The position numbers were made by a program, and so were the translations under genes. Source: a bacterium (GTDB taxonomy: Bacteria; Patescibacteriota; Minisyncoccia; UBA6257; GWB1-50-10). Taken from it: 64,000 nucleotides of DNA. The stretch covers positions 27,239 to 91,238 of the forward strand of contig JAKAHD010000003.1 in the NCBI GenBank assembly GCA_021815205.1. Reading direction: 5' to 3'. The notes under the pieces are model-generated. The model did not search any database and was not told where the DNA came from. It saw only the letters and a list, made by a program, of their open reading frames with translations. Below are positions 907-63,748 of this stretch, piece after piece (position 1 is the stretch's first letter; every line of letters starts with the position of its first letter).

Positions 907-948
907 CAGACACGGGGTGCTATGCTATAGCATAGCACCCCGTGTCTG
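907..948. repeat. 42-bp perfect palindrome (cagacacggggtgctatgctatagcatagcaccccgtgtctg)
   Basis: Read directly; sequence equals its own reverse complement; sits in 575-bp non-coding convergent intergenic region full of dyad symmetry. Confidence 0.9.
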
Positions 949-1764: not shown

Positions 1765-1943
1765 GCTACGAAATACGAATTAAGTGCGAATATACGAATA
1801 ATGTCTTCTTCTGCCATCCTGAGCGGAGGAATAATCCTTTCAGTTCAGTATCAGTACACATCGGCCTCATCGGTATCAATCAGCGTCTTAGAGATCCTTC
1901 TCCGCCTACGGCGGATTCAGGATGACAACCTTCTAATACGGGC

Positions 1944-2758: not shown

Positions 2759-2834
2759 AAGCTGGGTAAGGTAAAAAGTGGGTAAGACTGGGGCTAGCGC
2801 CCCGGAGCGCACACTTTCTTACCTTACCCAGCTT
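2759..2834. repeat. Hairpin element with conserved 31-nt loop (copy 1 of 2)
   Basis: 16-bp perfect inverted arms aagctgggtaaggtaa/ttaccttacccagctt around core AAAGTGGGTAAGACTGGGGCTAGCGCCCCGGAGCGCACACTTT; same core at 50376-50460 with unrelated arms. Confidence 0.8.
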
Positions 2835-4483: not shown

Positions 4484-4683
4484 AATATAACTCTATGTGA
4501 AACGAGCAGTAAGGTCAATTGATATGAGAAATTTGCCCCTACAAAGCAGAGGAATTTAAACGCTGATTTATACTGATAAGGCTGATGTGTGCCGATAACG
4601 AAGATACTTCTCCGCCGAAGGCATATCAGCATGAATCAGCTATACTCCCAAACCTAATCATGGGTGGGAGGTAAATCGGCGCC

Positions 4684-5511: not shown

Positions 5512-6479
5512 ACGTTTTTGAAAACAAGAAGATGTTTCAGACGATAATACCACCGTAAGAGCGCGGGGAAAAAAGAAGCGGGAATGATAAGAATAATAAG
5601 ATCGAGGATAAAGAAAAACGGCGCGCTCGGCGGATAGGCGCGGAAGGCGCGCCGCGCGAGAAGACGCGCATTTTCCTTGTCTCCGTTTGCAAGATACGCC
5701 GCCGAGGTTTTAAACCCATACACCGAGCGATAATAATCGAGTTTGGACGCACGCCGCGCGCGTTTTTCCATCTTCTCCGCGAGGCGATCAAGGATCTGAA
5801 GATTGGTAAGCTTCACCGCGGGCTGACTCTTCGCATCTTGAAGATTCCCGCTCTTCCGCATACGCAACTTCCCAAGTATCTCGGGGAGAAAACAGATCAC
5901 TCCTCCGGCAGACGCGACCCTGATCCAAAACTCCAGATCCTCGGAGCGGCGCATCGTCTCGTCGAAATATCCGAAACGATCAAACGCGCTTCTCCGTAAC
6001 ACAACCGCAAGCGGCGCAATAAAGTTTCCTTGTATAAGGTGAGGCAATACCTTATCTCCTGAATAATATTTATACTGCAGTTTCAGAAGATGATTCGGTT
6101 CGTCCTCGTAAAAATGATAGAGATCGCAGTACGAGATATCGCATTCGGGATGCGACTCAAGATGTTCAATCTGTTTTTCCATCTTTTCTGGGAGAAAGAA
6201 ATCGTCCGCATCGAGAAGCGCGATGTAGCTTCCCTTCGCTTCTCTGATAGCCGTATTTCTCGCTCCGGAAAGACCTTTATTCGCTTGGATTATGTATTTG
6301 ACTTTCCCGGATTGAATATACGGCGCAAGCACCTCTTTCGTATTGTCCGTCGATCCGTCGTCGATCACGATAACCTCCTTGTTGCCATAGGTCTGCGCAA
6401 GTGCGGATTCGACGGCGTCCGCCACATAGCGGGCGGCGTTGTAGGATGGTATGATTATCGAAACGAGAGGTTGTTCCAT
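5508..6479 (-). CDS. Family 2 glycosyltransferase
   Basis: VSIIIPSYNAARYV...VIVIDDGSTDNT, DAD motif LLDADD. Confidence 0.8.
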   Translation of the reverse strand: MEQPLVSIIIPSYNAARYVADAVESALAQTYGNKEVIVIDDGSTDNTKEVLAPYIQSGKVKYIIQANKGLSGARNTAIREAKGSYIALLDADDFFLPEKMEKQIEHLESHPECDISYCDLYHFYEDEPNHLLKLQYKYYSGDKVLPHLIQGNFIAPLAVVLRRSAFDRFGYFDETMRRSEDLEFWIRVASAGGVICFLPEILGKLRMRKSGNLQDAKSQPAVKLTNLQILDRLAEKMEKRARRASKLDYYRSVYGFKTSAAYLANGDKENARLLARRAFRAYPPSAPFFFILDLIILIIPASFFPALLRWYYRLKHLLVFKNV

Positions 6480-17187: not shown

Positions 17188-17535
17188 TTATTGCGGACGC
17201 GAAAGCATCTCTTCCCTCGCACGACGAAGTTTTGCGGTACCCTGGTACCTTTTCCACGCGTGCCACTGAAACTCGCGGAACGCGTCTTCCGCGCCGGAAA
17301 TCACACGACCGTGTTTCATAATTTCAAATTGAAGAAGAGGCGATGCGGTATACGCGTCCACCAGGTCTATCTTCTCTTCGGGAATGGATAAAAGCTTCGC
17401 CGCGTTTTCGAGAGACGCAATCTTTTCCTCAAAAGAAAGGGGGCGGGCGGCATACACCGCCACATCAAAATCGGAGTGAGGGCTCGAAAAACCCGACGCC
17501 CGGGAACCGAATAAAATAAGAAGCGCGGACTGCAT
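17188..17535 (-). CDS. Pol-beta-superfamily nucleotidyltransferase (MNT-like)
   Basis: LFGSRASG...DFDV nucleotidyltransferase motif; no adjacent HEPN partner seen. Confidence 0.55.
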   Translation of the reverse strand: MQSALLILFGSRASGFSSPHSDFDVAVYAARPLSFEEKIASLENAAKLLSIPEEKIDLVDAYTASPLLQFEIMKHGRVISGAEDAFREFQWHAWKRYQGTAKLRRAREEMLSRPQ

Positions 17536-17550
17536 ACCTCCCATGGTACC

Positions 17551-18186
17551 CTACTTCCCCGCGGGAGTCGAGGTTGCGGTGCCGTTCACAAAGGCGGCCA
17601 TGTTCTTATCGCTCGGCCAGAGGGAAATAATTTTTTCACCCACCGTCTTCGCGTCCGCGGTTTTTCCCGCATCCATATAGAGTTGGTAGAGTCCGTAGAG
17701 GAACTGCGGACGTTTCGGGCTCAAGGCAAGCCCTTTCTCATAGAGCGCGAGGGCGGCATTATAATCTTTCTCACTCCTGTAATTTCTGAAATTCACCTCG
17801 TGGATATTCGCGAGCGTCATAAGCTCCTGCGTGTAGTTCAAGCCGTATCGCCCCGGCGCATTCGCGCGGGAAATAGAATCGGCGTAGGAGACGAGCGCGT
17901 CCGCGATCGCCTGCGGCGGTTTCTGCGCGATCACGCCGCCGATCTGGTTCTCTAAGAATCGGATGTTCTCGGCCTGCCCCACGGGAGAAGAGAAGTTCAG
18001 TGCCGTATTAAAAATACGCTCGTAATCCGCGACACTCCTCGCCTGATAGGAATTGTGCATCGCCTGAATAAAAAGCTGGGCCTTGCGGAACGGGAGGAAG
18101 GAGCCGTAGATCAAGGCGAGGACGGCAAGGATAATGCCGAGAGGAGCCGCAATTGTTTTGATTATTTTTTCTAGTGTAGTGTTCAT
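17551..18186 (-). CDS. Hypothetical membrane-anchored TPR-like protein
   Basis: N-terminal TM helix, helical repeat content; no recognisable catalytic motif. Confidence 0.4.
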   Translation of the reverse strand: MNTTLEKIIKTIAAPLGIILAVLALIYGSFLPFRKAQLFIQAMHNSYQARSVADYERIFNTALNFSSPVGQAENIRFLENQIGGVIAQKPPQAIADALVSYADSISRANAPGRYGLNYTQELMTLANIHEVNFRNYRSEKDYNAALALYEKGLALSPKRPQFLYGLYQLYMDAGKTADAKTVGEKIISLWPSDKNMAAFVNGTATSTPAGK

Positions 18187-18251
18187 TTTAAATTTTACAT
18201 TCTAAATTTTAATTCAATTTTAATTTTCTAATTTTAAAAACTTTTAGTGGT

Positions 18252-18614
18252 TTAATCTTTACCATTCATCGTTCCGACAATTTTTCCGAAAATCATAGAG
18301 AGTCCTTGGGCCTCGTTCCATAAAACTTTTATCTCATCCCGCTTATCTGGGGAATGTTTTGCAAACATTCTGAGCCAATGTTTTGTTTCTTGGGCTTCTT
18401 TTTTACAAATGTGTATTTTGTTTTTGAAATCTTTCCTCGAACTCGCGCCATTTGCTTCCATATAATTTGCTCCTACGCTTGTCGCTGCACGGACGAGCTG
18501 ACTGATAAGCGGCGTTGAAATGACATCTCTCGGTATGGATTTACAAAACATAATAACATTTTCCCCAAATACAGCTGTTCTTTCTTCTAAGTTGTACGGC
18601 GCTGTTTTGTTCAT
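18252..18614 (-). CDS. Four-helix-bundle protein ('23S rRNA intervening sequence' protein family)
   Basis: LEERT--F---V---C--IP------L--QL-RA-TSVGANY-EA---SS-KDF--K---C-KEA-ET--WL pattern; flanked on both sides by AT-rich spacers. Confidence 0.75.
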   Translation of the reverse strand: MNKTAPYNLEERTAVFGENVIMFCKSIPRDVISTPLISQLVRAATSVGANYMEANGASSRKDFKNKIHICKKEAQETKHWLRMFAKHSPDKRDEIKVLWNEAQGLSMIFGKIVGTMNGKD

Positions 18615-18660
18615 TTACCAATTTAAAATTCATTTAGAACTTAAAATTTGAAACTTAAAA

Positions 18661-20124
18661 TTAATTACTTGGGATTTGGTGCTTGGAATTTGGAATTTCC
18701 AAGAAGAGGTGTGTCGCGAATGCGAGGAAAAGAAATACATTGAGATAAATCGGGAGCACGTCGAAGAGCGCGATGCCTTGCCCTAGGTACGCGACGGGAA
18801 TCGCGAGGAGCCCCGCAGTGAGCACATACCCGTACGGATGGTGGTGCGCGACGATATCCTTCCTGCGCTTCACGAACTCGACGAAGAACGTGAGGTAGAT
18901 CCCGAGGAAGGCGAGGAATCCGACGATCCCCGTTTCCGCGAGGTAGTCAAAGAAGACGCTGTGCGCCCTATCAAACCATGTTTCCGAATTCTGCCCCGGC
19001 ACGTAGTGGCGCGGGTCGAAATACTTATCGAAGACCACGCTGAAATTCTCGGGGCCCCATCCGAGGAGCGGGCGCTCTTCGAATCCCTTGATTGCGGAGC
19101 CCCACGTCCAAAATCTTGTTTGTGCGGTCTGGTCGGATATCGAGACATCAAGAAGACGGCTTGAGGATTCGCAGAAAGGCACAAGCGGAATATTATTGCT
19201 CCGGAACGCGAAGGCGAGCCCCGCGAACACGATGCTTGCGCCCGCGAGGATCGCGGAGATCTTCTTCCCCTTTCCTTTGGGAAGCGCGAATGAGAGATAC
19301 AAGAGCCCCGTGATCACCGCGAGCCCGAGCCCGAGGAAAGAACCGCGCGTCTGCGAAAGAAGGAAGAAAAAGAGATAGGCGAGCATGAGTACGATAAACC
19401 CCCACACCTTCCCGTGGGGTATTATGCCCCGCGGGGATGATTTTAAATTACCATTCATCCCTGCCGTAGAACCACTGGATACTCTGGAAGGTGGGGGGGT
19501 AAAGAGCGCGTCGCGAGTGGGATTCCGCTTTTTTGTGAACCACAACCAAAGGCCGTAAAACATCATAAACATAAGATACGGCGCGAGGTACGCGGGATTG
19601 CCGAGCGAACCCTCGAACCTGCCGCAGAGCCCCGCAGGGCCGATGAACGACCCGACCTGAAACGATGCGGCAAGGCCGTAGAGAATCACGAAGCCCGATG
19701 CGACAAGTGAGAGTTTGAAGATGTGCCTCCACTCCAACTCCGTGCGGAAGAGTAAGAGGAGAAGCGTGAAGAAAATATAGAAATGGAGAATCTGCAGCCC
19801 TCCTTCGCCGCGTTCGAAGTTCGACCAGAATGCCGCCGCGGCATCGTAGGCGAAAAGGGACGCGAGGAGCGCCGCGAGCGTAAATATCGAGACGGCGATA
19901 AAAAGCGGATGATGAAACACCTTCTTCGCGCGCGCCTTCAATGCCTCCCACTCGTGGTTATGGAAGATCACTCCCAAGAGGAACGCGATAAGCGCGAGAT
20001 CCACCGCCGCGCGGAAAAACACATACTTCCCTACGATAAAAGGAAAGAGGGTGGAATTGGTAACCAAGATCACGCAGAAGACGGAGAGGTAGAGAAGAAT
20101 GCGGGAGAGCTTGAAGTAATTCAT
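18661..20124 (-). CDS. O-antigen ligase-like membrane protein
   Basis: Multi-TM, SQTRGSFLGLGLA (Wzy_C) motif, GWGPENF motif. Confidence 0.65.
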   Translation of the reverse strand: MNYFKLSRILLYLSVFCVILVTNSTLFPFIVGKYVFFRAAVDLALIAFLLGVIFHNHEWEALKARAKKVFHHPLFIAVSIFTLAALLASLFAYDAAAAFWSNFERGEGGLQILHFYIFFTLLLLLFRTELEWRHIFKLSLVASGFVILYGLAASFQVGSFIGPAGLCGRFEGSLGNPAYLAPYLMFMMFYGLWLWFTKKRNPTRDALFTPPPSRVSSGSTAGMNGNLKSSPRGIIPHGKVWGFIVLMLAYLFFFLLSQTRGSFLGLGLAVITGLLYLSFALPKGKGKKISAILAGASIVFAGLAFAFRSNNIPLVPFCESSSRLLDVSISDQTAQTRFWTWGSAIKGFEERPLLGWGPENFSVVFDKYFDPRHYVPGQNSETWFDRAHSVFFDYLAETGIVGFLAFLGIYLTFFVEFVKRRKDIVAHHHPYGYVLTAGLLAIPVAYLGQGIALFDVLPIYLNVFLFLAFATHLFLEIPNSKHQIPSN

Positions 20125-20223
20125 TTTTTTATACGGATGACCGCTGATTGCTGGCTGATTACCGCTGATTATCTTGCGGATGACCGCTGATAAAAGCGAT
20201 AAAAGGATTATACTATAAATGAG

Positions 20224-20640
20224 ATGACAACGGGAGATGGGGAAAATAGGGTAAACGATTTCTTATATGAAGACGCTTCGTACAAATTACGCGGGTGCGT
20301 TTTTAGAGTATACAACACTTTGGGTTTTGGACATAAGGAGGGCGTGTACCAAAAAGCTCTTGCGGAAGAATTCTTAAAATCGGGTTTAACATTCGAAAGG
20401 GAAAAAACAATTCCCATAATCTATAACGGAAAACAAGTAGGGACATATCGGCCCGATTTCACTATCGAGGGCACCATCATCCTTGAAATCAAAGCGGTTG
20501 AATTTATGCCGAAAAGCTACGAAACGCAACTCGTATATTATCTTAAAGGAACAAATTATAAGCTCGGCTTCCTTGTGAATTTCGGCGCCGCAAAGCTAGA
20601 TATGAGAAGACGAGTCTATACGCCTGCCGTATCAGTGTAA
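20224..20640 (+). CDS. GxxExxY family protein (PD-(D/E)xK-like)
   Basis: RPDF-IE---ILEIKA ... YY(L)K-T-YKLGFLVNFG signature of GxxExxY family. Confidence 0.7.
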   Translation: MTTGDGENRVNDFLYEDASYKLRGCVFRVYNTLGFGHKEGVYQKALAEEFLKSGLTFEREKTIPIIYNGKQVGTYRPDFTIEGTIILEIKAVEFMPKSYETQLVYYLKGTNYKLGFLVNFGAAKLDMRRRVYTPAVSV

Positions 20641-20662
20641 ATCAGCTTGCAATCAGCGGAAA

Positions 20663-23248
20663 TCAGTTAGGAAAAACCTGAATATTGGAATTACTCCCAC
20701 TTGAAGGTGATGTCGGGGAAGGCAACTGAATCCCCAGCTGATTGAACACGGGCTCGAGCTGGGACCACATCGGGGTCGCGCGGAGATCAATTTCCTTCGC
20801 GAGCGCTTCGAAGGCGGCTTTTGCCTCCGCGTTCTTCCCCCAGAGGTAGTACGCGACCGCGATCTTCAGCCGTATCTCGTTATGTTGGTTCGCACCCTGC
20901 GCCATCGCAAGCGCCTGGGTGTAATATCCGATCGCCGCGCCGTACTTCTGCTCCTCGTCGCCGAGAATATCCCCGAGCGCGGTCGCCTCCTCCACGGAGC
21001 GCGGCACGCGCCCCAACGCCTTCGCCTTCGCGATCTCCGCGTCTCCCGTCTTCGCATCCTTCAACTGGTACGCGAGAAGCCCGAGGAAAAAGTGCGGATC
21101 GCCCGCCTCTGGATTCAGACCCACCGCCGTTTTGAAGGCGTCGTAGGCGCCCTGCGTATCCCCCTCGAGCGCCTTCGTCTTCCCGATCACGTAGTACGTC
21201 TGCTGGCGATTGGGGCTCAACTCGAGTGCTTTTACTTCGAGCTCGCTCGCCTCTTTCAGATAGTTCGGGTTGAACGTATGAAACGTGTTCTTCACTTCCG
21301 CAAGCGTATCATAAAAGAGATAGTTCTTCGGATGATCGTCGACGACCGCCTGCATTTCGTCCACGACTTTCTTCTGGAGTGTCTGTATGTTGGGAAACTG
21401 GATGCCACTCTGATATCCTTGATTGATCACGCCCTCGAAGGTGAGCCGAATGTCATCGCGATACGGTGTCGGAACCGCAAGCGCCTCCTGCGCCGCACCG
21501 AGCGACTCCGGAATCATCCGGTTCAAGTAATAATTCGGAATCCAGTACTCCCTTCCCGCGCCGTACACCATCTGCCAGTTTAGAAAGATCACGGGGATGA
21601 GAGAGAGCACGAGGAATGGATATGCGAATGGCACAGATTTCCGCTGATTCTCTTGGACGCTGATTGATGCCGATTGGGCTGATTGATGCCGATACGCCGA
21701 ATCAATGAAGGCGATCACGAGAAAGAACATGAGGTACGTGCCGATCGTGTCGAAGATTACGAGATTCCGGACGAAGTATGCCGCGAGCATACCGAGAAGA
21801 ACGATACGTAGCCGATTACCGCTGATTGTAAGCTGATTACCACTGATTCCTCCGATGCCGCGGATTTTCAGAAGCTCATAGAGGAGCGTTACCCACACGC
21901 CGAGGTAGGCGAGGAGGCCCGCGATGCCGCCCGTAATCGCGTACTCGATAAGGACATTGTGCGGCTTGTCCCAGTAGGTTTCGCCGAAGGTGTTTGTGAG
22001 CAGCGCGGGGTTGTAGTGCTTCTGGAACGCGAGATTGAAGTTCTCCCATCCGAACCCGAATACGGGATGCGCCGGGAACGATTCCGCGGCGCTCTGCCAC
22101 GCGAGGAGGCGGTTCTCGAACTCGTTCCGCACCGTCCTAAAGTTTTGAATGCGATCGAGGCCCGGCACGTGGGACCAGAAAGATGCGCTACGGGTGAAAT
22201 AAAAAATACTGCCGAGGGCAATTACAATTACCAAGACGATGAGCCAGGGATTCTTGTAGACGGATGACCGCTGATTGCTTGCTGATTGCCGCTGATTCTC
22301 CATGACGGATGACCGCTGATTGCTTGCTGATTGCCGCTGATTCTCCATGACGGATGACCGCTGATTGCTTGCTGATTGCCGCTGATTCTCCATGACGGAT
22401 GACCGCTGATTGCTAGCTGATTGATGCTGATACCGGACGGCAAGAAGAAGAATGATAAGCAATAATCCCGCGAGGAGTCCCGCGATGTCGCCGCGGGTCT
22501 GGGTTTTGAAAATTGCCACTACATCCACCAAAGAGATACAAAGGTAGAGCCACCTATCCCTCACTCTTGATACCAGTTGAGGCCTACTATTCTGGACGCT
22601 GATTGATGCTGATTGGGCTGATTGATGCTGATCCATAAAAAGATGGATCCCAATGAAGACGTTAAAGAGTAGGTAGCCCGCGAGGAAGGTGGGGTTGCCG
22701 AACGAGGAGCCGGGGCGGGCGATCCCCTGCTCCAGAAAGAGATCATTCACGAAGGGAACGAAGGAAAAAAGAGCGCCCAGGGCGGCGGCGAGACTTGTCC
22801 ACACGCTCACGCGCCACACCTTTTTCCAGTCGATCGCGTCGCCAAGCGACGAGAGCGCGAGAAAGAGGAGCGCGAAGAACCAGAGCGAGACGACTCCCAA
22901 GGTGCGCGTCTCCTGCGACCATAAGCTGTTCAAAAGATCCTCGCCGAGGAACGCGGAGATCGTGAGAACGGACATAAAGACAAGCACTCCTATGGTGAGG
23001 GGGGTGAAGCGCACCCCCACGGATGACCGCTGATTGCGTGCTGATTGCCGCTGATTGCTAGCTGATGACCGCTGATAAAAAACAAGGGCGAGCCACAAAA
23101 GGATGATGATGCCCGTGAAGGACTGGAAGAGCGCGGTCTTTACGACGATAAAGGGGTTCATCGTCCACTTCCAGAAAAAAAGCGGGACGAGGACGACCAT
23201 TGAGTAGAGGCAACCTCTGATAATTTTGAGAACTGAGTTTTCGGACAT
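20663..23248 (-). CDS. O-antigen ligase-like membrane protein with C-terminal TPR domain and internal 15-aa tandem repeats
   Basis: Multi-TM N-terminal region with GFGWENF motif; C-terminal TPR repeats; MENQRQSASNQRSSV x3 encoded by perfect 45-bp DNA repeats. Confidence 0.65.
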   Translation of the reverse strand: MSENSVLKIIRGCLYSMVVLVPLFFWKWTMNPFIVVKTALFQSFTGIIILLWLALVFYQRSSASNQRQSARNQRSSVGVRFTPLTIGVLVFMSVLTISAFLGEDLLNSLWSQETRTLGVVSLWFFALLFLALSSLGDAIDWKKVWRVSVWTSLAAALGALFSFVPFVNDLFLEQGIARPGSSFGNPTFLAGYLLFNVFIGIHLFMDQHQSAQSASISVQNSRPQLVSRVRDRWLYLCISLVDVVAIFKTQTRGDIAGLLAGLLLIILLLAVRYQHQSASNQRSSVMENQRQSASNQRSSVMENQRQSASNQRSSVMENQRQSASNQRSSVYKNPWLIVLVIVIALGSIFYFTRSASFWSHVPGLDRIQNFRTVRNEFENRLLAWQSAAESFPAHPVFGFGWENFNLAFQKHYNPALLTNTFGETYWDKPHNVLIEYAITGGIAGLLAYLGVWVTLLYELLKIRGIGGISGNQLTISGNRLRIVLLGMLAAYFVRNLVIFDTIGTYLMFFLVIAFIDSAYRHQSAQSASISVQENQRKSVPFAYPFLVLSLIPVIFLNWQMVYGAGREYWIPNYYLNRMIPESLGAAQEALAVPTPYRDDIRLTFEGVINQGYQSGIQFPNIQTLQKKVVDEMQAVVDDHPKNYLFYDTLAEVKNTFHTFNPNYLKEASELEVKALELSPNRQQTYYVIGKTKALEGDTQGAYDAFKTAVGLNPEAGDPHFFLGLLAYQLKDAKTGDAEIAKAKALGRVPRSVEEATALGDILGDEEQKYGAAIGYYTQALAMAQGANQHNEIRLKIAVAYYLWGKNAEAKAAFEALAKEIDLRATPMWSQLEPVFNQLGIQLPSPTSPSSGSNSNIQVFPN
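22261..22420 (-). repeat. Perfect 45-bp tandem repeat x3 plus partial 4th (CTGATTG-rich), in-frame in CDS
   Basis: ggatgaccgctgattgcttgctgattgccgctgattctccatgac repeated head-to-tail with 100% identity. Confidence 0.95.
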
Positions 23249-23368
23249 GAGTACAGATTAACATTGATTTCTTCTCCTGTCATTTTTGGGGACGCGGATT
23301 TATGCTGATTTCACTGATTTATGCCGATACGACATCAGCACCCATCAGCCTTATCAGCATCTATCAGC

Positions 23369-23403
23369 GAAACAACCCCGACCGAAGTCGGGGTTGTTTT
23401 TAC
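23369..23403. terminator. Intrinsic terminator hairpin (aaacaaccccgac/gtcggggttgttt) with T-run
   Basis: 13-bp perfect stem, 4-nt loop, TTTTT; immediately 3' of surface protein gene. Confidence 0.6.
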
Positions 23404-26832: not shown

Positions 26833-27625
26833 TTTCTATTTTCTGAACACTTCCCCATACTGCCATAAATTGCTCGTCCTTATGCGCCGTATGAAGATTT
26901 GTTCTTTTGTTTGTTCGACAATTTTGTTTTTCTGTTCGGTCATGGCACGTCTTTTTCCGTGCCAGCCGCCGACCTTTGGGGTTTCAGGAACGTCATGCGC
27001 CTCCCTTTTCGACCCGCGCCTTGTGAGGTTAGGTGGCGGAAGAAGAGGAGATGACGGGTAGTATCTAACTGAAATTTTTAATTCCTAATTTTTAATTTCT
27101 AAACCCGAATTAAAAACTGGGATCCTGCATAACAAAAATCTCGCTTGTGGAGCGAGATTGTAAAACTCATGAATACACAGAACACCTCCGGCAGAGACAT
27201 CCGTCGCCAAATCGAGCTATTCAGCAAGGGGTGACTCAGCCAAAGGGCCGCGTGCTTCATCAGTTTGGCCTCACTCCAAACTAATTGATGCCTTCGTCGT
27301 TATCAGTATACATCAGCTCACATCAGCACTATCAGCGTCAAGAACTCAATAGAGATGGGACGCCGATACATGGCCGATAAGGCCGATACATACTGAACTT
27401 GACAGTATGATTATACCAAATTACAGCTCTTTTCGGAAGATTGCAAGAAGATCCCTCTCTCTCGTCGTGGCGGTATACTACCTATAACGAAGATGCCCCC
27501 TCCCCGTTACGGGGGCATACAGATTTTCACAGATCTACAACAGATGCTCACGGATCACAAAATAACTACGAACCGATGTATCTGTGATCCGCGAAAATCC
27601 GCAGTCATCCGTGCCGATCTGTCGT

Positions 27626-31001: not shown

Positions 31002-31184
31002 AGGATGAAAATTTTTAATTTAAAATTTGAAATTTTTATTGGATTTTAAAATTGATTAAAAATTAAGAATTTCAAATTAAAAATTAAAACTCTTCAGTTA
31101 TTATAAGGTATCCTACTCCTTTTGGGTAAGATTAGCAAATGGGTACTCTGAGTGCTAATTAACTTCCCCGAGAGATATTGGGGA

Positions 31185-32520: not shown

Positions 32521-32646
32521 ATAGAAGCAGGTTACCTGCCCGAATGACCGTCATTCGGTCGGGCGGGCGCAGAAACGTACGCGGATTCACGCTGACGCGT
32601 TCTGCGTTTATCTGCGTTTTCATCTGCGTGATCCGCTTCTACGATA
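32521..32646. repeat. About 126-bp MITE-like element with TAGAAGCAG terminal inverted repeats (copy 1)
   Basis: About 85% identical to 44287-44410; internal palindrome cgaatgaccgtcattcg; CTGCGTT repeats. Confidence 0.8.
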
Positions 32647-33426: not shown

Positions 33427-33575
33427 ATATTTTTTATGTTTCCTTCGACAAGATATAGTATAGCATAAAAACGACGGAATTTTAAATTTCAAGTTCTACG
33501 TTTTAAATTAATTTTAATTTTTTCAATTTTAAAATTCGCTCATTCAATTAAAATCTGAAATTTAGAATTTAAAAT

Positions 33576-35183
33576 TTATTCAAGTATTTTCTTCATCCTC
33601 TTCACCGCCTCCCTTATTTCCGCTTTCGTGGTATAGATCCCGAAACTGAAACGGACGCTTCCCCGCACGCGCTCCGAAGGGAGATGAAGCGCCTCTAACA
33701 CATGAGACGGGGCATACGATCTTGCACTACACGCGGAGCCGGAAGATGCCGCAATTCCCGCCATATCCATCTTCGTGAGCAGATCTCCCGCAAACTCCGT
33801 CGGAAAATAGACGTTCAGGATATGCGGCGCCGTATCGCTTCTTCCTTTATTCCTCCTTCCTGATTCCTGATTCCCGTTTATCGATGCCGGCGGATACACC
33901 TTCTTCAATGCTCTCCAAAAGTAATCTCTGATCTCCGTCACCCTCTTCACGTTTCTTGCGCGCTCCTTTTCCGCAAGGCGCGCCGCCTCACCGAACCCCG
34001 CGATCGCGGGCACGTTTTCCGTGCCTGAACGAAGGCCGAACTCCTGGCCGCCCCCCGTCACGAGCGGCTGCACCGCCCGCAAATCCGAATTTCGAAATCC
34101 GAAATCCGAAACCACGCTCTTCCCATTATTCTGAGTTCGCCTACCGGCGAACGAAGAATCTCCACGTAGAGATCCTTCACTCCACTCAGGATGACGTACT
34201 ACTCTCGAATTTCGTACATAGAGTGCTCCCGTTCCCTTCGGGCCGTAGATCTTCTGCGAGGAGAGCGTCATAAGGTCGACGCCGAGCTTTGCCGTATCAC
34301 AATTGAAATACTCGAATGCCTGCGCGGCATCAACGTGGAACAACGGATACGTTGTTCCAAAATCCGAATTTCGAAATCCGAAATCCGAAATACCGTTTCG
34401 TGCTTTTAATTTCGTGCTTCGAATTTGTTTCGAATTTCGTGCTTCGAATTTCGTATTTTGATAGTTGCGGATAATATCCGCAATTTGAGCGATGGGTTGT
34501 ATGGAACCAATCTCGTTATTCACGTACATCACCGACACAAGCACGGTGCGTTCATCGAGCGATGATTCGAGTTTCTTCATGTCCACAATTCCCTTCTTAT
34601 CGACGGGGAGCACCGCAATTTCCACTCCTTCTCTCTCGAGCGAGTACGCGGTGTCGAGCACGGATTCGTGTTCGATCGCCGAAACAATTATTTTAGGACG
34701 CTGATTTACGCTGATTGCTAGCTGATGACCGCTGATTTTATTTTTTATACCAGAGATCCTCCGCCTCGCGTGTTTTTCAAGGAATATCTCGGAGCTCTCA
34801 CGAGCTTGGTCTCCGAAGGAACCATGAGAGCGAGAGCGCATGACGTCTTCCGCCGCTGGAGCGGAAGAACGGCCGGTTCCGCGAGAAGCAAAAAGAGCGC
34901 TTCTCGCCACCCCGCGGAGCGCAAGGTTGTTCGCCTCGGTCGCGCCCGAGGTAAAGATCACCTCGCGGAACCTCCCGTTAATCGCCTTCGCGATCGTCTC
35001 CCGCGCCTTGTCCACTGCGCTCATCGCCTTTTGCCCGAAGGAATGCAAAGAACCAGGATTCCCGAAGTTGTCGGAAAAATACGGGAGCATTATTTTTCTC
35101 GCCTCGCTCCGCACCGGAGTCGAAGCGGCGTAGTCCAAATAAATCCTTCTCATTAAGATTGAATAACGGTAATGAGGCGGCAA
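33576..35183 (-). CDS. Cysteine desulfurase (NifS/IscS family) carrying four in-frame low-complexity insertions (true start may be 35153)
   Basis: YLDYAASTP, FTSGATEANN, PLP-lysine region SSQKIYGPKG, GGGQE-GLRSGTENV, C-terminal active-site SSGSACS; 535 aa vs about 385 typical; inserts map onto DNA repeat elements. Confidence 0.8.
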   Translation of the reverse strand: MPPHYRYSILMRRIYLDYAASTPVRSEARKIMLPYFSDNFGNPGSLHSFGQKAMSAVDKARETIAKAINGRFREVIFTSGATEANNLALRGVARSALFASRGTGRSSAPAAEDVMRSRSHGSFGDQARESSEIFLEKHARRRISGIKNKISGHQLAISVNQRPKIIVSAIEHESVLDTAYSLEREGVEIAVLPVDKKGIVDMKKLESSLDERTVLVSVMYVNNEIGSIQPIAQIADIIRNYQNTKFEARNSKQIRSTKLKARNGISDFGFRNSDFGTTYPLFHVDAAQAFEYFNCDTAKLGVDLMTLSSQKIYGPKGTGALYVRNSRVVRHPEWSEGSLRGDSSFAGRRTQNNGKSVVSDFGFRNSDLRAVQPLVTGGGQEFGLRSGTENVPAIAGFGEAARLAEKERARNVKRVTEIRDYFWRALKKVYPPASINGNQESGRRNKGRSDTAPHILNVYFPTEFAGDLLTKMDMAGIAASSGSACSARSYAPSHVLEALHLPSERVRGSVRFSFGIYTTKAEIREAVKRMKKILE

Positions 35184-35751: not shown

Positions 35752-35847
35752 TTTATTATAAATTTTAATTCTAAATTTCAAATTTTAAATCAATTTAAAA
35801 ATTTTAAAATTTAAACATTACGTTATTGAATAAAAATTTAAAATTCG

Positions 35848-36495
35848 TCATTTATATTTCGGGTGTTCTTCCTTCGCCTTGAGCAGGTAGTTTGCGTACC
35901 GCGCGAGCGCGAAGAGCATGCTTGAGAGACGATTCAGAAACTGGAGGAACTCGGGGGAAAGCTTCGCGCGTTTCCCAAAAACGATCGCGGAGCGCTCGGC
36001 GCGGCGCGCGATTGCGCGCGCGATATCGAGCTTCGCGGAGAGTTCGCTTCCTCCCGGAAGCACGAAGTTCCGGAGCGTGGGGAGCAGAGCATCAATCTTC
36101 TGGATCATGTGTTCAAGTCGCGCGGTCTTTGCCTCGGTGATACGCGGAATTTCTTTCACGGAATAGGTAAACCCAATCGAGGCGATCTCCGCCTGCGCGA
36201 TGAAGAGGTCTTCTTGCAGATCCTCGAGCGACCGCAGAACGAGCGCGCCCGACCCGTTAGGAATCTCGTCTCCTCCAGATGACCCAAGCGGCTTCCGGGG
36301 CGGGCTATTTCTAACGGGGCCCGCTTTCTTCTTTATGAAAACCTTTTTCGCCTCGATGCGGCACAGTCCGAACCACGAGTTCAGTTCGTCGAGGTTCCCC
36401 AAGAGCTCAAAAAGTGCATCGTCTTTTTCAAGGCGCTTGTTACCGAAGGAGCTTCTTCCCCCATCCCCTTTTCCGGTAAAAAACTGGGTCTTCAT
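35848..36495 (-). CDS. PduO-type ATP:cob(I)alamin adenosyltransferase family protein
   Basis: TGKGDGG N-terminal motif and LEDLQEDLF helical signature of PduO/MMAB family; contains a low-complexity insert. Confidence 0.6.
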   Translation of the reverse strand: MKTQFFTGKGDGGRSSFGNKRLEKDDALFELLGNLDELNSWFGLCRIEAKKVFIKKKAGPVRNSPPRKPLGSSGGDEIPNGSGALVLRSLEDLQEDLFIAQAEIASIGFTYSVKEIPRITEAKTARLEHMIQKIDALLPTLRNFVLPGGSELSAKLDIARAIARRAERSAIVFGKRAKLSPEFLQFLNRLSSMLFALARYANYLLKAKEEHPKYK

Positions 36496-40356: not shown

Positions 40357-40451
40357 ATAAAGTAATACGATAAAAATACAATAGTGACACGGTGGAAATA
40401 CAATCGCACAACTGCATCACTATTGTATCACCACCGTATCACTTTCTCTTG

Positions 40452-40752
40452 TGCCGCGGGGGTGAGTTGAACACCCGACGCCCGCCTCTTCCAAAGCGAC
40501 TGGACTATCTCATCACCCACCGCAACTAGATAAGAGTTGGGTGGGGCTGGGCGCTATTGCAGGATTATTGTTGGGACTCACCTGCTAGTCTCTACACCTT
40601 CCGAAGAACCGTAGCCCTCTTCGGCTTGGCTCGGGATTGTTTCTCATACAACATCGAGAAGTTTTCCCCGAGTTCACCCAGTTTTTAATTTTGCATTACT
40701 GCAAAATGCCCCAAAGATCTAGGGCGGCGCTCTACCGCTGAGCTACCGCGGC
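40452..40752 (-). tRNA. tRNA-Phe (GAA) interrupted by a 229-nt group I intron after U33
   Basis: 5' exon 40721-40752 and 3' exon 40452-40491 join into canonical cloverleaf (acceptor GCCGCGG/CCGCGGC, A73, anticodon loop CU/GAAGA, T GGGTG TTCAACT CACCC). Confidence 0.75.
40492..40720 (-). ncRNA. Group I self-splicing intron in tRNA-Phe anticodon loop
   Basis: Follows exon U; P1 CCCU/GGGG with U-G at splice site; 3' terminal G; R-like GUAGAGACUAG and S-like GAUAGUCC able to form P7; P2 and P8 hairpins. Confidence 0.65.
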
Positions 40753-42283: not shown

Positions 42284-42354
42284 CCTTTCGTATCGGGATA
42301 TAGTGTAACGGTAGCACGAGTCCTTTGGGAGGATTTAGTCTCGGTTCAAGTCCG
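42284..42354 (+). tRNA. tRNA-Pro (TGG), no encoded CCA
   Basis: Acceptor CGGGATA/TATCCCG, anticodon loop TTTGGGA with G37, T CTCGG TTCAAGT CCGAG, A73. Confidence 0.75.
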
Positions 42355-42661
42355 AGTATCCCGACAAAAATCAATTACCGCACCGCGAGCCGTGCGGTAT
42401 GAAAGAAACCCTTCGACTCGCCTCCGGCTCGCTCAGGGTATTTTTCTCCTGCCATTCATCCTCGCCGCGAGCGGCGAGGTATTCTGATGAAAAATAAAAG
42501 GTGGGCGGGTGAAGGAGCAGGTAGACCGGGTTCCTCGCCTGCTATGCATATGCGTAGCAGGCGGGCAGGGATTCCCGGCTCTCCGACAAATTTTTCTCGC
42601 CGAATAAACCCACACCTTCGCCGCAGGGTATCCTGAGGGTGTACAGTACGCAGGAGATCTC

Positions 42662-44286: not shown

Positions 44287-44410
44287 TATAGAAGCAGATA
44301 ACCTGCCCGAATGACCGTCATTCGGTCGGGCGGGCGCAGAAATACACGCGGATAGACGCAGATAATGTTTCTGCGTTTTCTGCGTGCTCGTGGCGTTCTG
44401 CTTCTACGAT
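44287..44410. repeat. About 124-bp MITE-like element with TAGAAGCAG TIRs (copy 2)
   Basis: Matches 32521-32646; partial third copy at 39055-39100. Confidence 0.8.
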
Positions 44411-46033: not shown

Positions 46034-46034
46034 C

Positions 46035-46345
46035 TACGAAATACGAAAACATACGAATATACGAAAGAAAGTACGCCTCATCTTGCCAAAATTAACATGG
46101 AACTTGTGTATAATTCTTGCATAGCGGGACGTTTTTCTTTAATTTGGTTCCATATTCGTATATTCGTAGAAAATTCGTATTTCGTAGCAAAAGAGTAGGA
46201 AAACAGAGGGTGGTCTGCTATAATAAACCCGTAAAGAAAAAGGTCGGAGGTTGGCTACGAAATACGAAAACATACGAATATACGAAAGTGCCGAATGCGC
46301 AATCGATTTGTATATTCATACTTCATTCGTAATTCGTAGAGAAAC
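46035..46345. repeat. Cluster of TACGAA-box elements (two identical direct 34-mers, two inverted copies) upstream of hup
   Basis: ctacgaaatacgaaaacatacgaatatacgaaag at 46035 and 46254; inverted versions at 46146-46184 and 46318-46345; related copy at 1765-1800. Confidence 0.8.
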
Positions 46346-50375: not shown

Positions 50376-50460
50376 ACGCACAGTTTATATGGCAAAAAAG
50401 TGGGTAGGACTTGGGCTAGCGCCCCGGAGCGCACACTTTTTTGCCATATAAACTGTGCGT
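50376..50460. repeat. Hairpin element with conserved 31-nt loop (copy 2 of 2)
   Basis: 24-bp perfect arms acgcacagtttatatggcaaaaaa / ttttttgccatataaactgtgcgt around same core as 2759-2834 (2 substitutions). Confidence 0.8.
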
Positions 50461-50834: not shown

Positions 50835-50904
50835 ACCCACAAAACCAATCCCGCGCGTTTCCGCGTATCATCCGCGTAAATCCGCGGTTTTGTAAAACAA
50901 AACA

Positions 50905-53935: not shown

Positions 53936-54152
53936 CAAAAAAGGAATTTTTAATTTACAATTTCTAATTTTTAATCAATTTTTAAGACAAAAATGTTTTA
54001 ATTTTTAAAATTAGAACATTCGCTCATTGATTAAAAATTTCAAATTAAAAATTCAAAAATTCTTCAATGAAGTAATCGGTTTTTCGCGTTTTCCTGAATT
54101 CAATCAGCAGTGAAGAAAATTCTAGAGACTTGCGCGAAGAGCTAAATAACGT

Positions 54153-63501: not shown

Positions 63502-63748
63502 GGTAGTTATTGTAATGGGGAAGCGGAATTTTCGCAAAACACGGACACCGAATTTTAAATATCCATCATATGAGAAAACCCACCATAATATGCGCACACA
63601 TCCGCCCCTCAAAAGTAACGATTACTAAATCAATTTAGTACAACGGAAGGAGGTCTTGCCTCAATATGATGTATTGAAGCGAGGCGTCCTGATTTTAGAG
63701 TACGTGTATCCGCGTAAATCAGTTTTAAATCCGCGGTAATCCGTTTTT

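What the first reader, a model, noticed from the sequence alone, without database searches (positions are those of the whole stretch)
4558..4646. CTGAT-box composite repeat family scattered through intergenic regions (and in-frame in genes)
The elements are built from 2-4 CTGAT(T) boxes at about 10-bp spacing, a GCCGATA(C/A) box, and the inverted ATCAG boxes. They occur at 4558-4646, 20136-20202, 23281-23362 and 27296-27395, and in-frame at 34693-34741, 21636-21690, 21813-21850, 22255-22430 and 23016-23075. The box/inverted-box arrangement predicts hairpins. The helical-turn spacing is what iterons or arrays of binding sites for one DNA-binding protein look like. No CDS of its own is present, so it is a non-autonomous element or a regulator-site family.
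Basis: seen in the sequence. Interest (0 to 1): 0.55.

Follow-up and report, generated by a model that had tools for sequence, protein, structure and literature searches.

The report
Repeat ends of a nuclease-gene cassette
The scattered CTGAT-box repeats are the inverted end-pieces, and the gene-less or one-armed leftovers, of a small selfish DNA cassette that carries a nuclease gene, and related cassettes sit in-frame inside essential genes of many uncultured bacteria.

Summary
Observation confirmed. CTGAT as a word is not enriched (120 vs 114 expected). Its arrays at 9-11 bp spacing are far beyond chance: 20 triples vs 0 in 300 shuffles.

The claim "no CDS of its own" is wrong. Arrays 20133-20195 and 20629-20667 are inverted copies that tightly bracket a 138-aa GxxExxY (PDDEXK_3) nuclease gene. 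This gene is absent from the syntenic site of a related Patescibacteria genome.

In 69 metagenomic GxxExxY loci the flanks also carry inverted 10-bp-periodic box arrays, and the box type (CTGAT, CGGAT, CAGAT, GCGGAA and others) co-varies between the two flanks of one gene. A second GxxExxY gene of the same genome has perfect TACGAA-box ends, with gene-less copies in the window.

The other CTGAT elements are gene-less two-armed copies or single arms. Single arms persist in-frame in permissive loops of a Wzy-TPR protein and IscS. One is a 45-bp array seen with 2-4 units.

In other organisms whole cassettes lie in-frame in RecG, LepA, GatB and DHFR. The closest published relative is the 23S rRNA intervening sequence.

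The mobility mechanism is inferred, not shown. I favour nuclease-started copying; RNA stem formation is a second possibility.

The parts
20133..20195 (+). Left end (LE) array of the cassette: ACGGATGACC-GCTGAT x3, then GCGGATGACC-GCTGAT-AAAA. It starts 9 nt from the ATG of the neighbouring Wzy gene (20124) and ends 29 nt before the GxxExxY ATG.
   Evidence: (D1, I6)
20224..20640 (+). GxxExxY protein gene (138 aa; Pfam PDDEXK_3, NCBIfam TIGR04256). E39, D78, E88 and K90 are invariant in 30 homologues. AlphaFold model pLDDT 91.6.
20629..20667 (-). Right end (RE) array: four ATCAG boxes, the inverted copy of the LE (46 nt, 74% complementary). It overlaps the last codons and stop of the GxxExxY gene. 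It also contains the TGA stop (20663-20665) of the convergent Wzy-TPR gene.
   Evidence: (I6)
23019..23080 (+). Solo array, collinear with the whole cassette LE. In-frame in Wzy-TPR loop 1, read as QRSSASNQRQSARNQRSSV.
   Evidence: (D1, D10)
22593..22635 (+). Solo array of subfamily 2 (GGACGCTGATTGATGCTGATTGGGCTGATTGATGCTGAT). In-frame in loop 2.
   Evidence: (D6)
22259..22434 (+). Solo array amplified as 3.8 tandem copies of a 45-bp unit (97% identical). In-frame in loop 3. Otherwise 100%-identical proteins in the database carry 4, 3 or 2 units.
   Evidence: (D4)
21813..21851 (+). Solo array, in-frame in loop 4, in a different reading frame (ISGNQLTISGN).
21640..21696 (+). Solo array of subfamily 2, in-frame in loop 5.
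   Evidence: (D6)
34693..34741 (+). Solo array in-frame in IscS/NifS. It lies within a 68-aa insert (aa 96-163) that is absent from solved cysteine desulfurases.
23281..23369 (-). Gene-less two-armed element (LE + RE of subfamily 2 fused). It abuts the terminator hairpin 23370-23400. It has the same layout as the ends of the metagenomic cassette L180.
4558..4646 (-). Gene-less two-armed element in the spacer between the GT2 and GHMP-kinase genes (the interval of the finding).
27296..27395 (.). Two outward-facing arrays: four ATCAG boxes at 27296-27340 and three CCGATA boxes at 27355-27395. It is not a simple LE-RE hairpin.
1848..1894 (-). Degenerate subfamily-2 array (ATCAG/ATCGG boxes), intergenic.
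   Evidence: (I4, I13)

Best explanation
The CTGAT arrays are the terminal inverted box arrays of a small selfish cassette, plus its degenerate offspring. The cassette's only gene encodes a GxxExxY (PDDEXK_3) PD-(D/E)XK nuclease.

A full copy has three parts. The left array has 3-5 boxes of consensus ACGC[T/G]GAT at 10-11 bp spacing. The nuclease ORF follows. The right array is the inverted copy and starts at the stop codon.

The family also exists in two reduced forms. Gene-less two-armed copies (LE + RE) lie mostly in intergenic spacers next to terminators. One-armed 'solo' arrays also occur.

Inside genes only stop-free, in-frame arrays in tolerant surface loops survive selection. There they are translated as QSASNQR or ISGNQ low-complexity linkers, and they can expand by slippage.

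Shown here:
- the architecture;
- its recurrence, with co-variation of box type between the two flanks, in many unrelated loci;
- presence/absence of the cassette between syntenic genomes;
- near-identity of the solo arrays to the cassette end;
- genome-specific box families at orthologous protein loops;
- whole cassettes in-frame in conserved genes of other organisms.

Inferred, about 40% likely. Copies are made at the DNA level by breaks that the cassette nuclease introduces at or between arrays. Those breaks are repaired from another copy (homing or ectopic gene conversion). This would spread the ORF into gene-less LE-RE sites and homogenise the arrays within a genome.

Inferred from the published rRNA intervening sequences. 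In transcripts the two arms pair into a stem that RNase III can cut. That would make intergenic and rRNA insertions nearly harmless.
For: - LE and RE bracket the nuclease gene as 46-nt inverted repeats (I6). The gene is PDDEXK_3/TIGR04256 and its catalytic residues are invariant.
- The syntenic relative L123 has the same gene order but no cassette and no CTGAT arrays.
- In 72 metagenomic GxxExxY loci, forward C[TG]GAT boxes average 1.63 upstream vs 0.26 for reverse boxes. Downstream, reverse boxes average 1.36 vs 0.39 for forward boxes.
- In 69 non-redundant loci the own-flank inverted alignment score averages 22.6, vs 15.7 in direct orientation and 16.4 for cross-locus pairs. 29 of 69 loci exceed the 99th percentile of shuffles. 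The downstream arm usually starts 1-4 nt after the stop.
- Flank autocorrelation peaks at lag 10.
- Box type co-varies between the two flanks of a gene.
- Replicate in the same genome: a second GxxExxY gene (L211 19760-20164) has a perfect 34-nt inverted end of TACGAA boxes. Gene-less or solo TACGAA arrays lie in the window at 1765-1800, 46033-46187 and 46254-46345.
- The solo arrays, the cassette LE and RE, and the LEs of related cassettes align as one 4-box unit.
- The Wzy-TPR and IscS arrays sit where orthologues or solved structures have gaps.
- Closer orthologues carry other families at the same loops.
- The 45-bp array is seen with 4, 3 or 2 units.
- Whole cassettes lie in-frame in RecG, LepA, GatB, DHFR, GT1/GT2, LeuRS and Wzy. 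26 of 150 top cluster representatives are internal.
- Insert and host pairwise identities in 10 RecG genes are uncorrelated (r = 0.03).
- Coxiella IVS precedent: an inverted-repeat stem cut by RNase III, and tandem GACAGAT heptamers of variable number upstream of the ORF (PMC4990558).
Against: - No biochemical activity is known for any GxxExxY protein. PF13366 is listed as 'Unknown' (PMC3424549).
- The fold search gives only generic Cas4, lambda-exonuclease and RecB-like matches.
- No target-site duplication could be defined.
- An unrelated protein, the four-helix-bundle 23S_rRNA_IVP at 18252-18614, sits in the same kind of bracket. The ORF could therefore be cargo rather than the engine.
- Only about 40% of loci show a significant own-flank inverted repeat.
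- Of the 120 CTGAT-array loci sampled from other phyla, only one has a GxxExxY gene within 8 kb.
- The 2-4 unit variation could be short-read assembly collapse.
- The strand-asymmetry tests for RNA pairing are weak: 43 vs 26 loci, p = 0.13, and mixed results.
Confidence: 0.6

Rival explanations
1. These are ordinary MITE-like elements moved in trans by a conventional transposase encoded elsewhere in the genome. The GxxExxY gene, and the four-helix-bundle gene, are passenger cargo that happens to sit between two ends.
For: - Two unrelated small proteins occupy the same kind of inverted-array bracket.
- Gene-less two-armed copies look like MITEs.
- The outer termini are conserved: TAGAAGC[AGT]GAT ... 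ATC[TCA]GCTTCTA, with possible flanking TA.
- Most CTGAT arrays in other phyla have no GxxExxY gene nearby.
Against: - No transposase was noticed among the genes annotated in the window or in the 80 cassette loci, but no systematic search was made.
- The arrays hug the start and stop codons of the ORF, which is unusual for cargo.
- Box type tracks GxxExxY phylogeny: the closest homologues carry CTGAT boxes.
- The nuclease stays about 54% identical with intact catalytic residues across hosts that are about 50% identical.
Confidence: 0.15
2. The arrays are primarily RNA-level elements. The paired arms form stems that act as RNase III processing sites, 3'-end stabilisers or terminator helpers, as REP/BIME elements and rRNA intervening sequences do. 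Their dispersal is secondary.
For: - The IVS stems of 23S rRNA are cut by RNase III (PMC4990558).
- The two-armed copies sit just downstream of stop codons and next to terminators.
- The transcribed strand folds better for three of them: -32.6 vs -28.8, -36.8 vs -30.0 and -47.3 vs -29.3 kcal/mol.
- The cassette LE/RE duplex is -52.9 in sense vs -45.7 in antisense.
- In 43 of 69 loci the sense duplex is the more stable one.
Against: - Half of the window's arrays are one-armed, do not fold (z about 0) and are translated.
- The sense/antisense difference is not significant (p = 0.13), and one element goes the other way.
- Rfam has no match.
- RNA function does not explain presence/absence polymorphism or genome-specific box families.
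Confidence: 0.12
3. One reading: an array of binding sites (iteron- or operator-like) for one DNA-binding regulator that coordinates the genes near the sites.
For: - Boxes lie on one face of the helix, with 10-11 bp spacing.
- Several copies lie in 5' regions of polysaccharide genes.
- A promoter-like match uses the last box as its -35 element.
Against: - Six of 13 arrays are inside coding sequence.
- Promoter-like matches are at chance level.
- Arrays have fixed ends and copy the cassette end.
- Orthologous sites in relatives carry unrelated box families.
- There is no origin or initiator context.
Confidence: 0.05
4. These are locally generated minisatellites or low-complexity coding repeats made by replication slippage and kept for a protein-level role, with no mobile origin.
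For: - The 45-bp unit is tandemly amplified and varies in copy number.
- The 21-bp periodicity keeps the reading frame.
Against: - The same 4-box unit with the same ends occurs in two unrelated genes, in intergenic DNA, and around nuclease genes of other organisms.
- Two different reading frames are used.
- Distant orthologues lack the segments.
Confidence: 0.03

Closest known systems
Bacterial rRNA intervening sequences (IVS) carrying an S23p / 23S_rRNA_IVP ORF (Leptospira, Coxiella; PMC4990558)
   Same: - A small ORF is bracketed by terminal inverted repeats.
- Short tandem repeats lie just upstream of the ORF (GACAGAT heptamers after AGAAGA), with strain-variable copy number.
- Distribution is sporadic and horizontally transferred, and the element is regarded as selfish.
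- The window has an IVP-family gene (18252-18614) in the same kind of bracket, two genes away from the CTGAT cassette.
   Different: - The CTGAT cassette is not in an rRNA gene.
- It encodes a PD-(D/E)XK nuclease instead of the four-helix-bundle protein.
- Its repeats have a 10-11 bp rather than a 7 bp period.
- It has gene-less and one-armed copies, including copies translated inside proteins.
- RNase III processing is not tested here.
REPIN-RAYT systems (REP sequences and their REP-associated tyrosine transposase; PMC3116915, PMC3337134)
   Same: One gene is flanked by inverted copies of a short repeat. That repeat is also dispersed through the genome as inverted doublets and singlets, mostly in intergenic spacers.
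   Different: - The flanked gene here is a PD-(D/E)XK nuclease, not a Y1/HUH transposase.
- The repeat is an array of periodic boxes, not a 20-40 nt palindrome with a GTAG or CGTC head.
- Copies occur in-frame in genes.
- The family looks horizontally mobile.
Rickettsia palindromic elements (RPE; from my own knowledge of Ogata et al. 2000 and Claverie & Ogata 2003; PMC1779305 turned up but was not read)
   Same: Short selfish repeats are inserted in-frame in many protein-coding genes at structurally tolerant positions and are translated.
   Different: - RPEs are 100-150 bp palindromes with no associated gene and are confined to Rickettsia.
- Here the in-gene copies are one-armed box arrays, or whole nuclease cassettes in other organisms.
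Homing endonuclease genes and inteins
   Same: - A small nuclease gene is present or absent at the same site in related genomes.
- In relatives the cassette sits in-frame at the same conserved site of housekeeping genes: RecG between motifs II and III, LepA between G2 and G3, and GatB.
- Single-chain two-domain forms exist (40 of 150 cluster representatives).
   Different: - There is no intein (HINT) or self-splicing intron around it, so the insert stays in the host protein.
- Periodic inverted arrays flank the ORF.
- Site-specific cleavage is not demonstrated.
MITEs (miniature inverted-repeat transposable elements; PMC10969869)
   Same: The gene-less two-armed copies are short, have inverted ends, occur in several copies, and look like internal-deletion derivatives of a gene-bearing parent.
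   Different: - The parent has no recognisable transposase.
- No target-site duplication was found.
- The ends are multi-box arrays.

Membership tests
rRNA intervening sequence (IVS) type element | Terminal inverted repeats bracketing a small ORF | tested here: met
   20124-20169 vs 20631-20676 is 46 nt and 74% complementary. The LE/RE RNA duplex is -52.9 kcal/mol. The pattern recurs in 29 of 69 related loci.
rRNA intervening sequence (IVS) type element | ORF of the S23p / 23S_rRNA_IVP (PF05635) family | tested here: not met
   The ORF between the CTGAT arrays is PF13366/TIGR04256. A PF05635 gene with AT-rich inverted arrays lies nearby at 18252-18614.
rRNA intervening sequence (IVS) type element | Located inside a 16S/23S rRNA gene helix | tested here: not met
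   No rRNA gene is present in the window (Rfam). The cassette lies between two Wzy-family genes.
rRNA intervening sequence (IVS) type element | Stem excised from the transcript by RNase III | not testable with these tools
   Needs RNA mapping. Only folding energies are available.
MITE | Short (<~500 bp), no ORF, terminal inverted repeats, several copies | tested here: met
   4558-4646 and 23281-23369 fold with z = -2.7 and -3.4. Further gene-less elements of sister families are shown.
MITE | Target-site duplication flanking each copy | tested here: inconclusive
   Inspection of the boundaries shows no consistent direct repeat. A TA next to the TAGAAGC termini is possible but not consistent.
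MITE | Derived from an autonomous IS that encodes a transposase | tested here: not met
   The only gene-bearing copy encodes a PD-(D/E)XK nuclease. No transposase family matched the proteins scanned.
REPIN-RAYT | Flanked gene is a RAYT (Y1/HUH transposase) | tested here: not met
   Pfam and NCBIfam give PDDEXK_3 / GxxExxY only.
REPIN-RAYT | Single gene flanked by inverted repeats that are also dispersed as doublets and singlets | tested here: met
   Replicated by the TACGAA family and its own GxxExxY gene.
Iterons / regulator binding-site array | Direct repeats at helical spacing next to an origin, initiator gene or regulated promoters | tested here: not met
   The spacing criterion is met. 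However, 6 of 13 arrays are in coding sequence and promoter-like matches are at chance.
Homing endonuclease gene | Nuclease ORF with conserved catalytic residues, present or absent at one site among relatives | tested here: met
   E39, D78, E88 and K90 are invariant. The cassette is absent from syntenic L123.
Homing endonuclease gene | Site-specific cleavage of the cassette-free allele followed by copying | not testable with these tools
   Only indirect evidence is available. The same insertion site occurs in 10 RecG genes, with uncorrelated insert and host identities.
Intein | HINT protein-splicing domain around the in-frame insert | tested here: not met
   Pfam finds only host domains plus PDDEXK_3 in 10 insert-bearing proteins. 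The junctions are array-derived low-complexity peptides.
Rickettsia palindromic elements | In-frame insertion of a dispersed repeat in protein-coding genes | tested here: met
   Five arrays in Wzy-TPR and one in IscS lie at positions that are gaps in orthologues or solved structures.
Rickettsia palindromic elements | Membership of the RPE sequence families (100-150 bp palindromes of Rickettsia) | not tested
   No RPE sequence was compared here. From the literature as I know it, RPEs are 100-150 bp palindromes of Rickettsia. The in-gene copies here are one-armed and do not fold, and the host is a Patescibacteria lineage, so membership is unlikely.

The most novel reading that the evidence does not exclude
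GxxExxY cassettes, and their four-helix-bundle sister cassettes, are a previously unrecognised class of homing-type selfish elements. They are the extra-ribosomal relatives of rRNA intervening sequences.

On this reading the periodic inverted arrays do two jobs. At the DNA level they are the recognition and homology arms for nuclease-started copying. At the protein level they are stop-free hydrophilic linkers. Those linkers let the whole nuclease domain sit in-frame in surface loops of essential proteins (RecG, LepA, GatB, DHFR) without any splicing, as an 'intein without an intein'.

The CTGAT repeats of this window would be the footprint population of one such element.
Probability: 0.35. Interest if true: 0.85.

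Novelty: new variant of a known kind. Interest (0 to 1): 0.7.

Why it matters
- GxxExxY (TIGR04256/PF13366) is a very large protein family of unknown function: 22,336 clusters at 50% identity match the profile. The four-helix-bundle IVS protein family is a second uncharacterised family (PMC4990558).
- A common genomic architecture gives a concrete hypothesis for what these genes are: inverted 10-bp-periodic arrays, gene-less derivatives, and box families that co-vary with the gene.
- It links these genes to the 35-year-old puzzle of how rRNA intervening sequences arise and move.
- It makes the nuclease's substrate directly testable, because the arrays are the obvious candidates.
- It explains many odd low-complexity inserts in proteins of Patescibacteria. 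It also explains why short-read assemblies break at such sites.
- It matters for annotation. Array-derived peptides and in-frame nuclease domains inflate and distort predicted proteins.

Tried and rejected
- The single genome-contig scan used too loose a pattern (GCTGAT N3-5, three times). The source genome was not recovered. About 25 of the loci were still informative.
- tblastn and an HMM of GxxExxY against those 120 loci found only one gene (L021). Array-to-gene linkage could not be shown in other phyla.
- Rfam gave nothing for the elements at gathering threshold, in the window or in 20 cassette loci.
- PADLOC gave no hit for the GxxExxY or IVP proteins. PHROGs gave only one marginal hit (phrog_5928, unknown function, E = 0.004) for the second GxxExxY protein.
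- Promoter and terminator scans were at chance level.
- The G-U strand-asymmetry test for RNA pairing was not significant.
- No target-site duplication was found.
- The look-up of the 1221-aa protein to extend the window on the right failed.
- Full-text searches found no paper describing arrays around GxxExxY genes.
Full report

CTGAT as a word is not enriched: 120 matches on both strands against 114.3 +/- 10.8 in dinucleotide shuffles.

What is abnormal is the arrangement. There are 35 same-strand pairs at 9-11 bp and 20 triples, against 0.28 and 0 in 300 shuffles. ATCAG/CTGAT is by far the top 5-mer for such triples.

A cluster scan, the repeat finder and TRF give 13 arrays.

Two subfamilies exist.
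- Subfamily 1 reads ACGGATGACC-GCTGATTGCNN-GCTGATTRCC-GCTGAT, with spacing 11/10. This gives a 21-bp unit that keeps the reading frame.
- Subfamily 2 reads GGAC-GCTGATTGAT-GCYGATTGG-GCTGATTGAT-GCYGAT, with spacing 10/9/10.

Only 4558-4646 and 23281-23369 are box/inverted-box hairpins (DNA fold z = -2.7 and -3.4). The in-gene arrays are one-armed and fold no better than shuffles.

**2. Context.**

The window is from a Patescibacteria (Parcubacteria-group) genome. Homologues of its Wzy-TPR protein are named Wolfebacteria, Jorgensenbacteria and the like.

Six arrays lie inside two intact genes. Five are in ORF 20663-23248(-), a Wzy_C O-antigen-ligase-like membrane protein with C-terminal TPRs. 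One is in ORF 33576-35183(-), an IscS/NifS-type cysteine desulfurase.

Against a solved cysteine desulfurase, IscS has a 68-aa query-specific insert (aa 96-163) that contains the array, plus two further inserts made of other short repeats.

In an alignment of 12 Wzy-TPR orthologues, all five arrays fall in columns that are gaps in the more distant orthologues, in loops between hydrophobic segments. They are read as QSASNQRSS-type peptides, or in another frame as ISGNQ. So the 'in-frame in genes' statement is correct.

**3.

Arrays 20133-20195 (forward boxes) and 20629-20667 (inverted boxes) are a 46-nt, 74% complementary inverted pair (I6). They bracket ORF 20224-20640.

This 138-aa protein matches Pfam PDDEXK_3 (E = 9e-35) and NCBIfam TIGR04256 'GxxExxY protein'. 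E39, D78, E88 and K90 are invariant in 30 homologues. These fit the family's GxxExxY and PD-(D/E)xK motif pattern, so I read them as the catalytic residues. The AlphaFold model is confident (pLDDT 91.6).

The right array overlaps the gene's last codons. It also contains the TGA stop of the convergent Wzy-TPR gene. The left array begins 9 nt from the ATG of the next Wzy gene.

A related genome (L123, GCA_027423885.1) has the same order: ClpB, a 262-aa gene, the PG-binding protein, Wzy-TPR, Wzy, TPR, epimerase. It has only a 120-bp spacer where the window has the cassette, and it has no CTGAT arrays.

**4. Is the bracket a general property of GxxExxY genes?**

A metagenome scan with an alignment of homologues returned 80 loci.
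- In 72 loci with full flanks, forward C[TG]GAT boxes average 1.63 upstream against 0.26 for reverse boxes.
- Downstream the bias reverses: 1.36 reverse against 0.39 forward.
- 21 loci have at least 3 forward boxes upstream, against 1 locus with at least 3 reverse boxes.

With no assumption about box sequence, the upstream flank aligns to the reverse complement of its own downstream flank with mean score 22.6. The direct orientation gives 15.7 and flanks of other loci give 16.4.
- 29 of 69 non-redundant loci exceed the 99th percentile of shuffles.
- The downstream arm usually begins 1-4 nt after the stop codon.
- Flank autocorrelation peaks at lag 10.

The box differs among loci but matches between the two sides of one gene. 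The observed pairs are CTGAT/ATCAG, CGGAT/ATCCG, CAGAT/ATCTG, GCGGAA/TTCCGC, ACGGAC/GTCCGT and CACAGA/TCTGTG. The closest homologues of the window protein (60-72% identity) carry CTGAT boxes.

Many cassettes share an outer terminus, TAGAAGC[AGT]GAT ... GCTTCTA. Five viral-contig homologues show the same design with yet other boxes.

The window's LE, its RE (reverse-complemented), five of the in-gene solo arrays (all but 21640-21696 and 22593-22635, which are subfamily 2) and the LEs of five metagenomic cassettes align as one 4-box unit.

**5. An independent replicate in the same genome.**

Extending the contig to the left (L211) uncovered a second GxxExxY gene about 7 kb outside the window. 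Its flanks are perfect 34-nt inverted copies made of TACGAA boxes: GCTACGAAATACGAATTTTGTACGAATATACGAA.

The window contains a solo array of exactly this family at 1765-1800. It also contains two gene-less two-armed elements at 46033-46187 and 46254-46345 (I2, 57, 61).

Further gene-less elements of sister families lie at:
- 27519-27625 (ACAGAT boxes);
- 32521-32645 and 44288-44400 (TAGAAGC termini, with a nested GC hairpin);
- 50855-50890;
- 63689-63750.

The four-helix-bundle gene at 18252-18614 (PF05635/TIGR02436) is bracketed by 45-nt AT-rich inverted arrays. Two homologues in other loci are bracketed the same way. AT-rich gene-less palindromes of that type fill other spacers in the window and in L123.

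**6. What the other CTGAT copies are.**

23281-23369 has the layout of the ends of cassette L180 with the ORF removed. That layout is GACGC[T/G]GAT..., then GCCGATAC | ATCAGC..., then ATCAGYGAAAC followed by a terminator. 4558-4646 is similar.

The solo array 23019-23080 is collinear with the entire left end of the window's cassette, from ACGGATGACC to GCTGATAAAA.

The array in loop 3 is 3.8 tandem copies of a 45-bp unit. Otherwise 100%-identical proteins in the database carry 4, 3 or 2 units. This is either real length polymorphism or assembly collapse. Logan contigs break exactly there.

**7. Turnover at fixed protein positions.**

The 63%-identical orthologue (L125) has ACAGAT/ACGGAT...ATCTGT arrays in loops 1, 2 and 5. 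The 59%-identical orthologue (L123) has GC-rich palindromes at the same places.

Array similarity is high within a genome (local scores 21-36). It is at background between genomes at the same loop (scores 5-10).

Either the same tolerant loops are hit again and again, or resident arrays are overwritten by whichever family is active in the genome.

**8. Whole cassettes inside genes elsewhere.**

A profile search of 1.84 billion representatives found 22,336 clusters at E <= 1e-3. Of the best 150 clusters:
- 52 are stand-alone;
- 40 have two nuclease domains in tandem;
- 26 have the domain internal, with at least 60 aa on both sides;
- 26 have it N-terminal;
- 6 have it C-terminal.

Representatives may be biased towards long members.

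The hosts include RecG (between helicase motifs II and III), LepA (between G2 and G3), GatB, DHFR, GT1, GT2, LeuRS, asparagine synthase and Wzy-type proteins. In the Wzy-type proteins the insert sits in the loop that holds a solo array in the window.

I checked on DNA, with the standard code, that the frames are open through host, LE, nuclease, RE and host in RecG (L148, L162, L163) and in LepA (L173). The frame also runs through the cassette in L200, which looks like a glycosyltransferase.

The junction peptides are always array translations: TQIDAD or TQTNAD on the left, RESASxQRxSA or ISVNQR on the right. No intein domain is present.

In ten RecG genes the nuclease is about 54% identical and the host about 50%. 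Pairwise insert and host identities are uncorrelated (r = 0.03). This fits cassette exchange at a fixed site, but the sample is small.

**9. How it most likely works.**

Shown: a discrete cassette with inverted periodic ends; gene-less and one-armed derivatives; presence/absence polymorphism; genome-specific families; tolerance in-frame.

Inferred: copying at the DNA level. I favour (about 40%) breaks made by the cassette's own nuclease at or between arrays, repaired from another copy. Three observations fit this:
- the ORF is conserved under selection;
- the insertion sites are intein-like;
- single-chain two-domain forms exist, and arrays are homogenised within genomes.

Against it, a non-nuclease protein occupies the same bracket, and no activity is known for the family. 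PMC3424549 lists PF13366 as 'Unknown'.

There is also a plausible RNA layer. [quoted passage not shown] In that IVS, 2-3 tandem GACAGAT heptamers follow AGAAGA upstream of the ORF (PMC4990558). That is strikingly like the TAGAAGC-CAGAT termini seen here.

Three gene-less elements fold better on the transcribed strand, and the cassette's sense duplex is stronger than the antisense one. The survey-wide asymmetry is not significant.

**10. Comparison with the known, and novelty.**

The family works like REPIN-RAYT, MITE and RPE systems, and like IVS elements. It fails defining features of each: no RAYT, no transposase or target-site duplication, not in rRNA, no intein (see the membership table).

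Full-text searches found nothing on arrays around GxxExxY genes. The CPR rRNA-insertion survey reports IVP ORFs and many short ORF-less insertions, and the passages I searched in it say nothing about such arrays (PMC11270868).

I file it as a new variant of a known kind, with a substantial chance of being more than that.

Noticed in passing
window 40482-40730 (-), next to tRNA-Pro(UGG) 40451-40526 (-): Rfam group I intron match (63 bits, gathering score 50). It overlaps the 3' part of an ARAGORN tRNA-Pro call, so it may be an intron-containing tRNA gene. A second tRNA-Pro(UGG) lies at 42294-42365 (+).
   Followed up: no
L211 19760-20164 (same genome, about 7 kb left of the window); window 1765-1800, 46033-46187, 46254-46345: A second GxxExxY gene has perfect 34-nt inverted ends made of TACGAA boxes. 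One solo and two gene-less copies of the same box family lie in the window.
   Followed up: yes
window 18185-18661; also 31006-31096, 33478-33576, 35754-35866, 53941-54064: The four-helix-bundle (23S_rRNA_IVP/TIGR02436) gene 18252-18614 is bracketed by AT-rich inverted box arrays (AATTTTAAA-type). Gene-less AT-rich palindromes of the same type occupy several other spacers. L123 has similar ones. The gene is absent from the syntenic relative.
   Followed up: partly
window 34081-34111, 34356-34454 (inside IscS, aa 237-280 and 327-370): Two more query-specific inserts in IscS are made of TCCGAAA / TTCGTGCTTCGAA tandem boxes, read as ARNSKQIRSTK...SDFGFRNSDFG. An Akkermansiaceae locus (L079) has CCGAAAT boxes next to CTGAT boxes.
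   Followed up: partly
window 27519-27625; 32521-32645; 44288-44400; 50855-50890; 63689-63750: Further gene-less or solo elements of sister families: ACAGAT/ATCTGT boxes, and TAGAAGC...GCTTCTA termini with a nested GC-rich hairpin CCCGAATGACCGTCATTCGG. The 27519-27625 element folds at -47.3 kcal/mol on the minus strand vs -29.3 on the plus strand.
   Followed up: partly
P0228, P0229, P0232, P0258, P0259, P0262, P0293; L148, L162, L163 (RecG); L173, P0223, P0230, P0242 (LepA); P0217, P0233 (GatB); P0215 (DHFR); P0243, P0237 (Wzy-type): Complete GxxExxY cassettes are inserted in-frame at the same conserved sites of housekeeping genes in other metagenomic organisms. Array-derived linker peptides sit on both sides and there is no intein domain.
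   Followed up: partly
40 of the 150 best cluster representatives (e.g. P0209, P0212, P0214): Proteins of about 265 aa have two GxxExxY domains in tandem. These are single-chain 'dimers', reminiscent of monomeric homing endonucleases.
   Followed up: no
window 2773-2826 and 50395-50448; similar sequence in L123 about 5860-5900: A 54-nt repeat (91% identical), AAAAAGTGGGTARGACTKGGGCTAGCGCCCCGGAGCGCACACTTT. Each copy is embedded in a longer inverted repeat. It is conserved in the related genome and could be a small RNA or another element. It has no Rfam match.
   Followed up: no
window 914-940 and 1092-1118: Two perfect 27-nt copies in inverted orientation (GGGGTGCTATGCTATAGCATAGCACCC). Each is itself palindromic, and they lie 151 nt apart.
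   Followed up: no
window 17188-17544 (-): A MntA-type nucleotidyltransferase antitoxin-like gene (NF047752, E = 1.4e-20) sits in the polysaccharide locus. Like the GxxExxY and IVP genes, it is absent from the syntenic relative L123.
   Followed up: no
L126, L127, L130, L136, L196 (upstream of the left array): A conserved stretch, CCTTTCCTTGTGGGCAAC, followed by a long A/T-clamped terminator hairpin, directly precedes the CTGAT array in several related cassettes. It has no Rfam match, and it is unclear whether it belongs to the element or marks a preferred landing site.
   Followed up: partly
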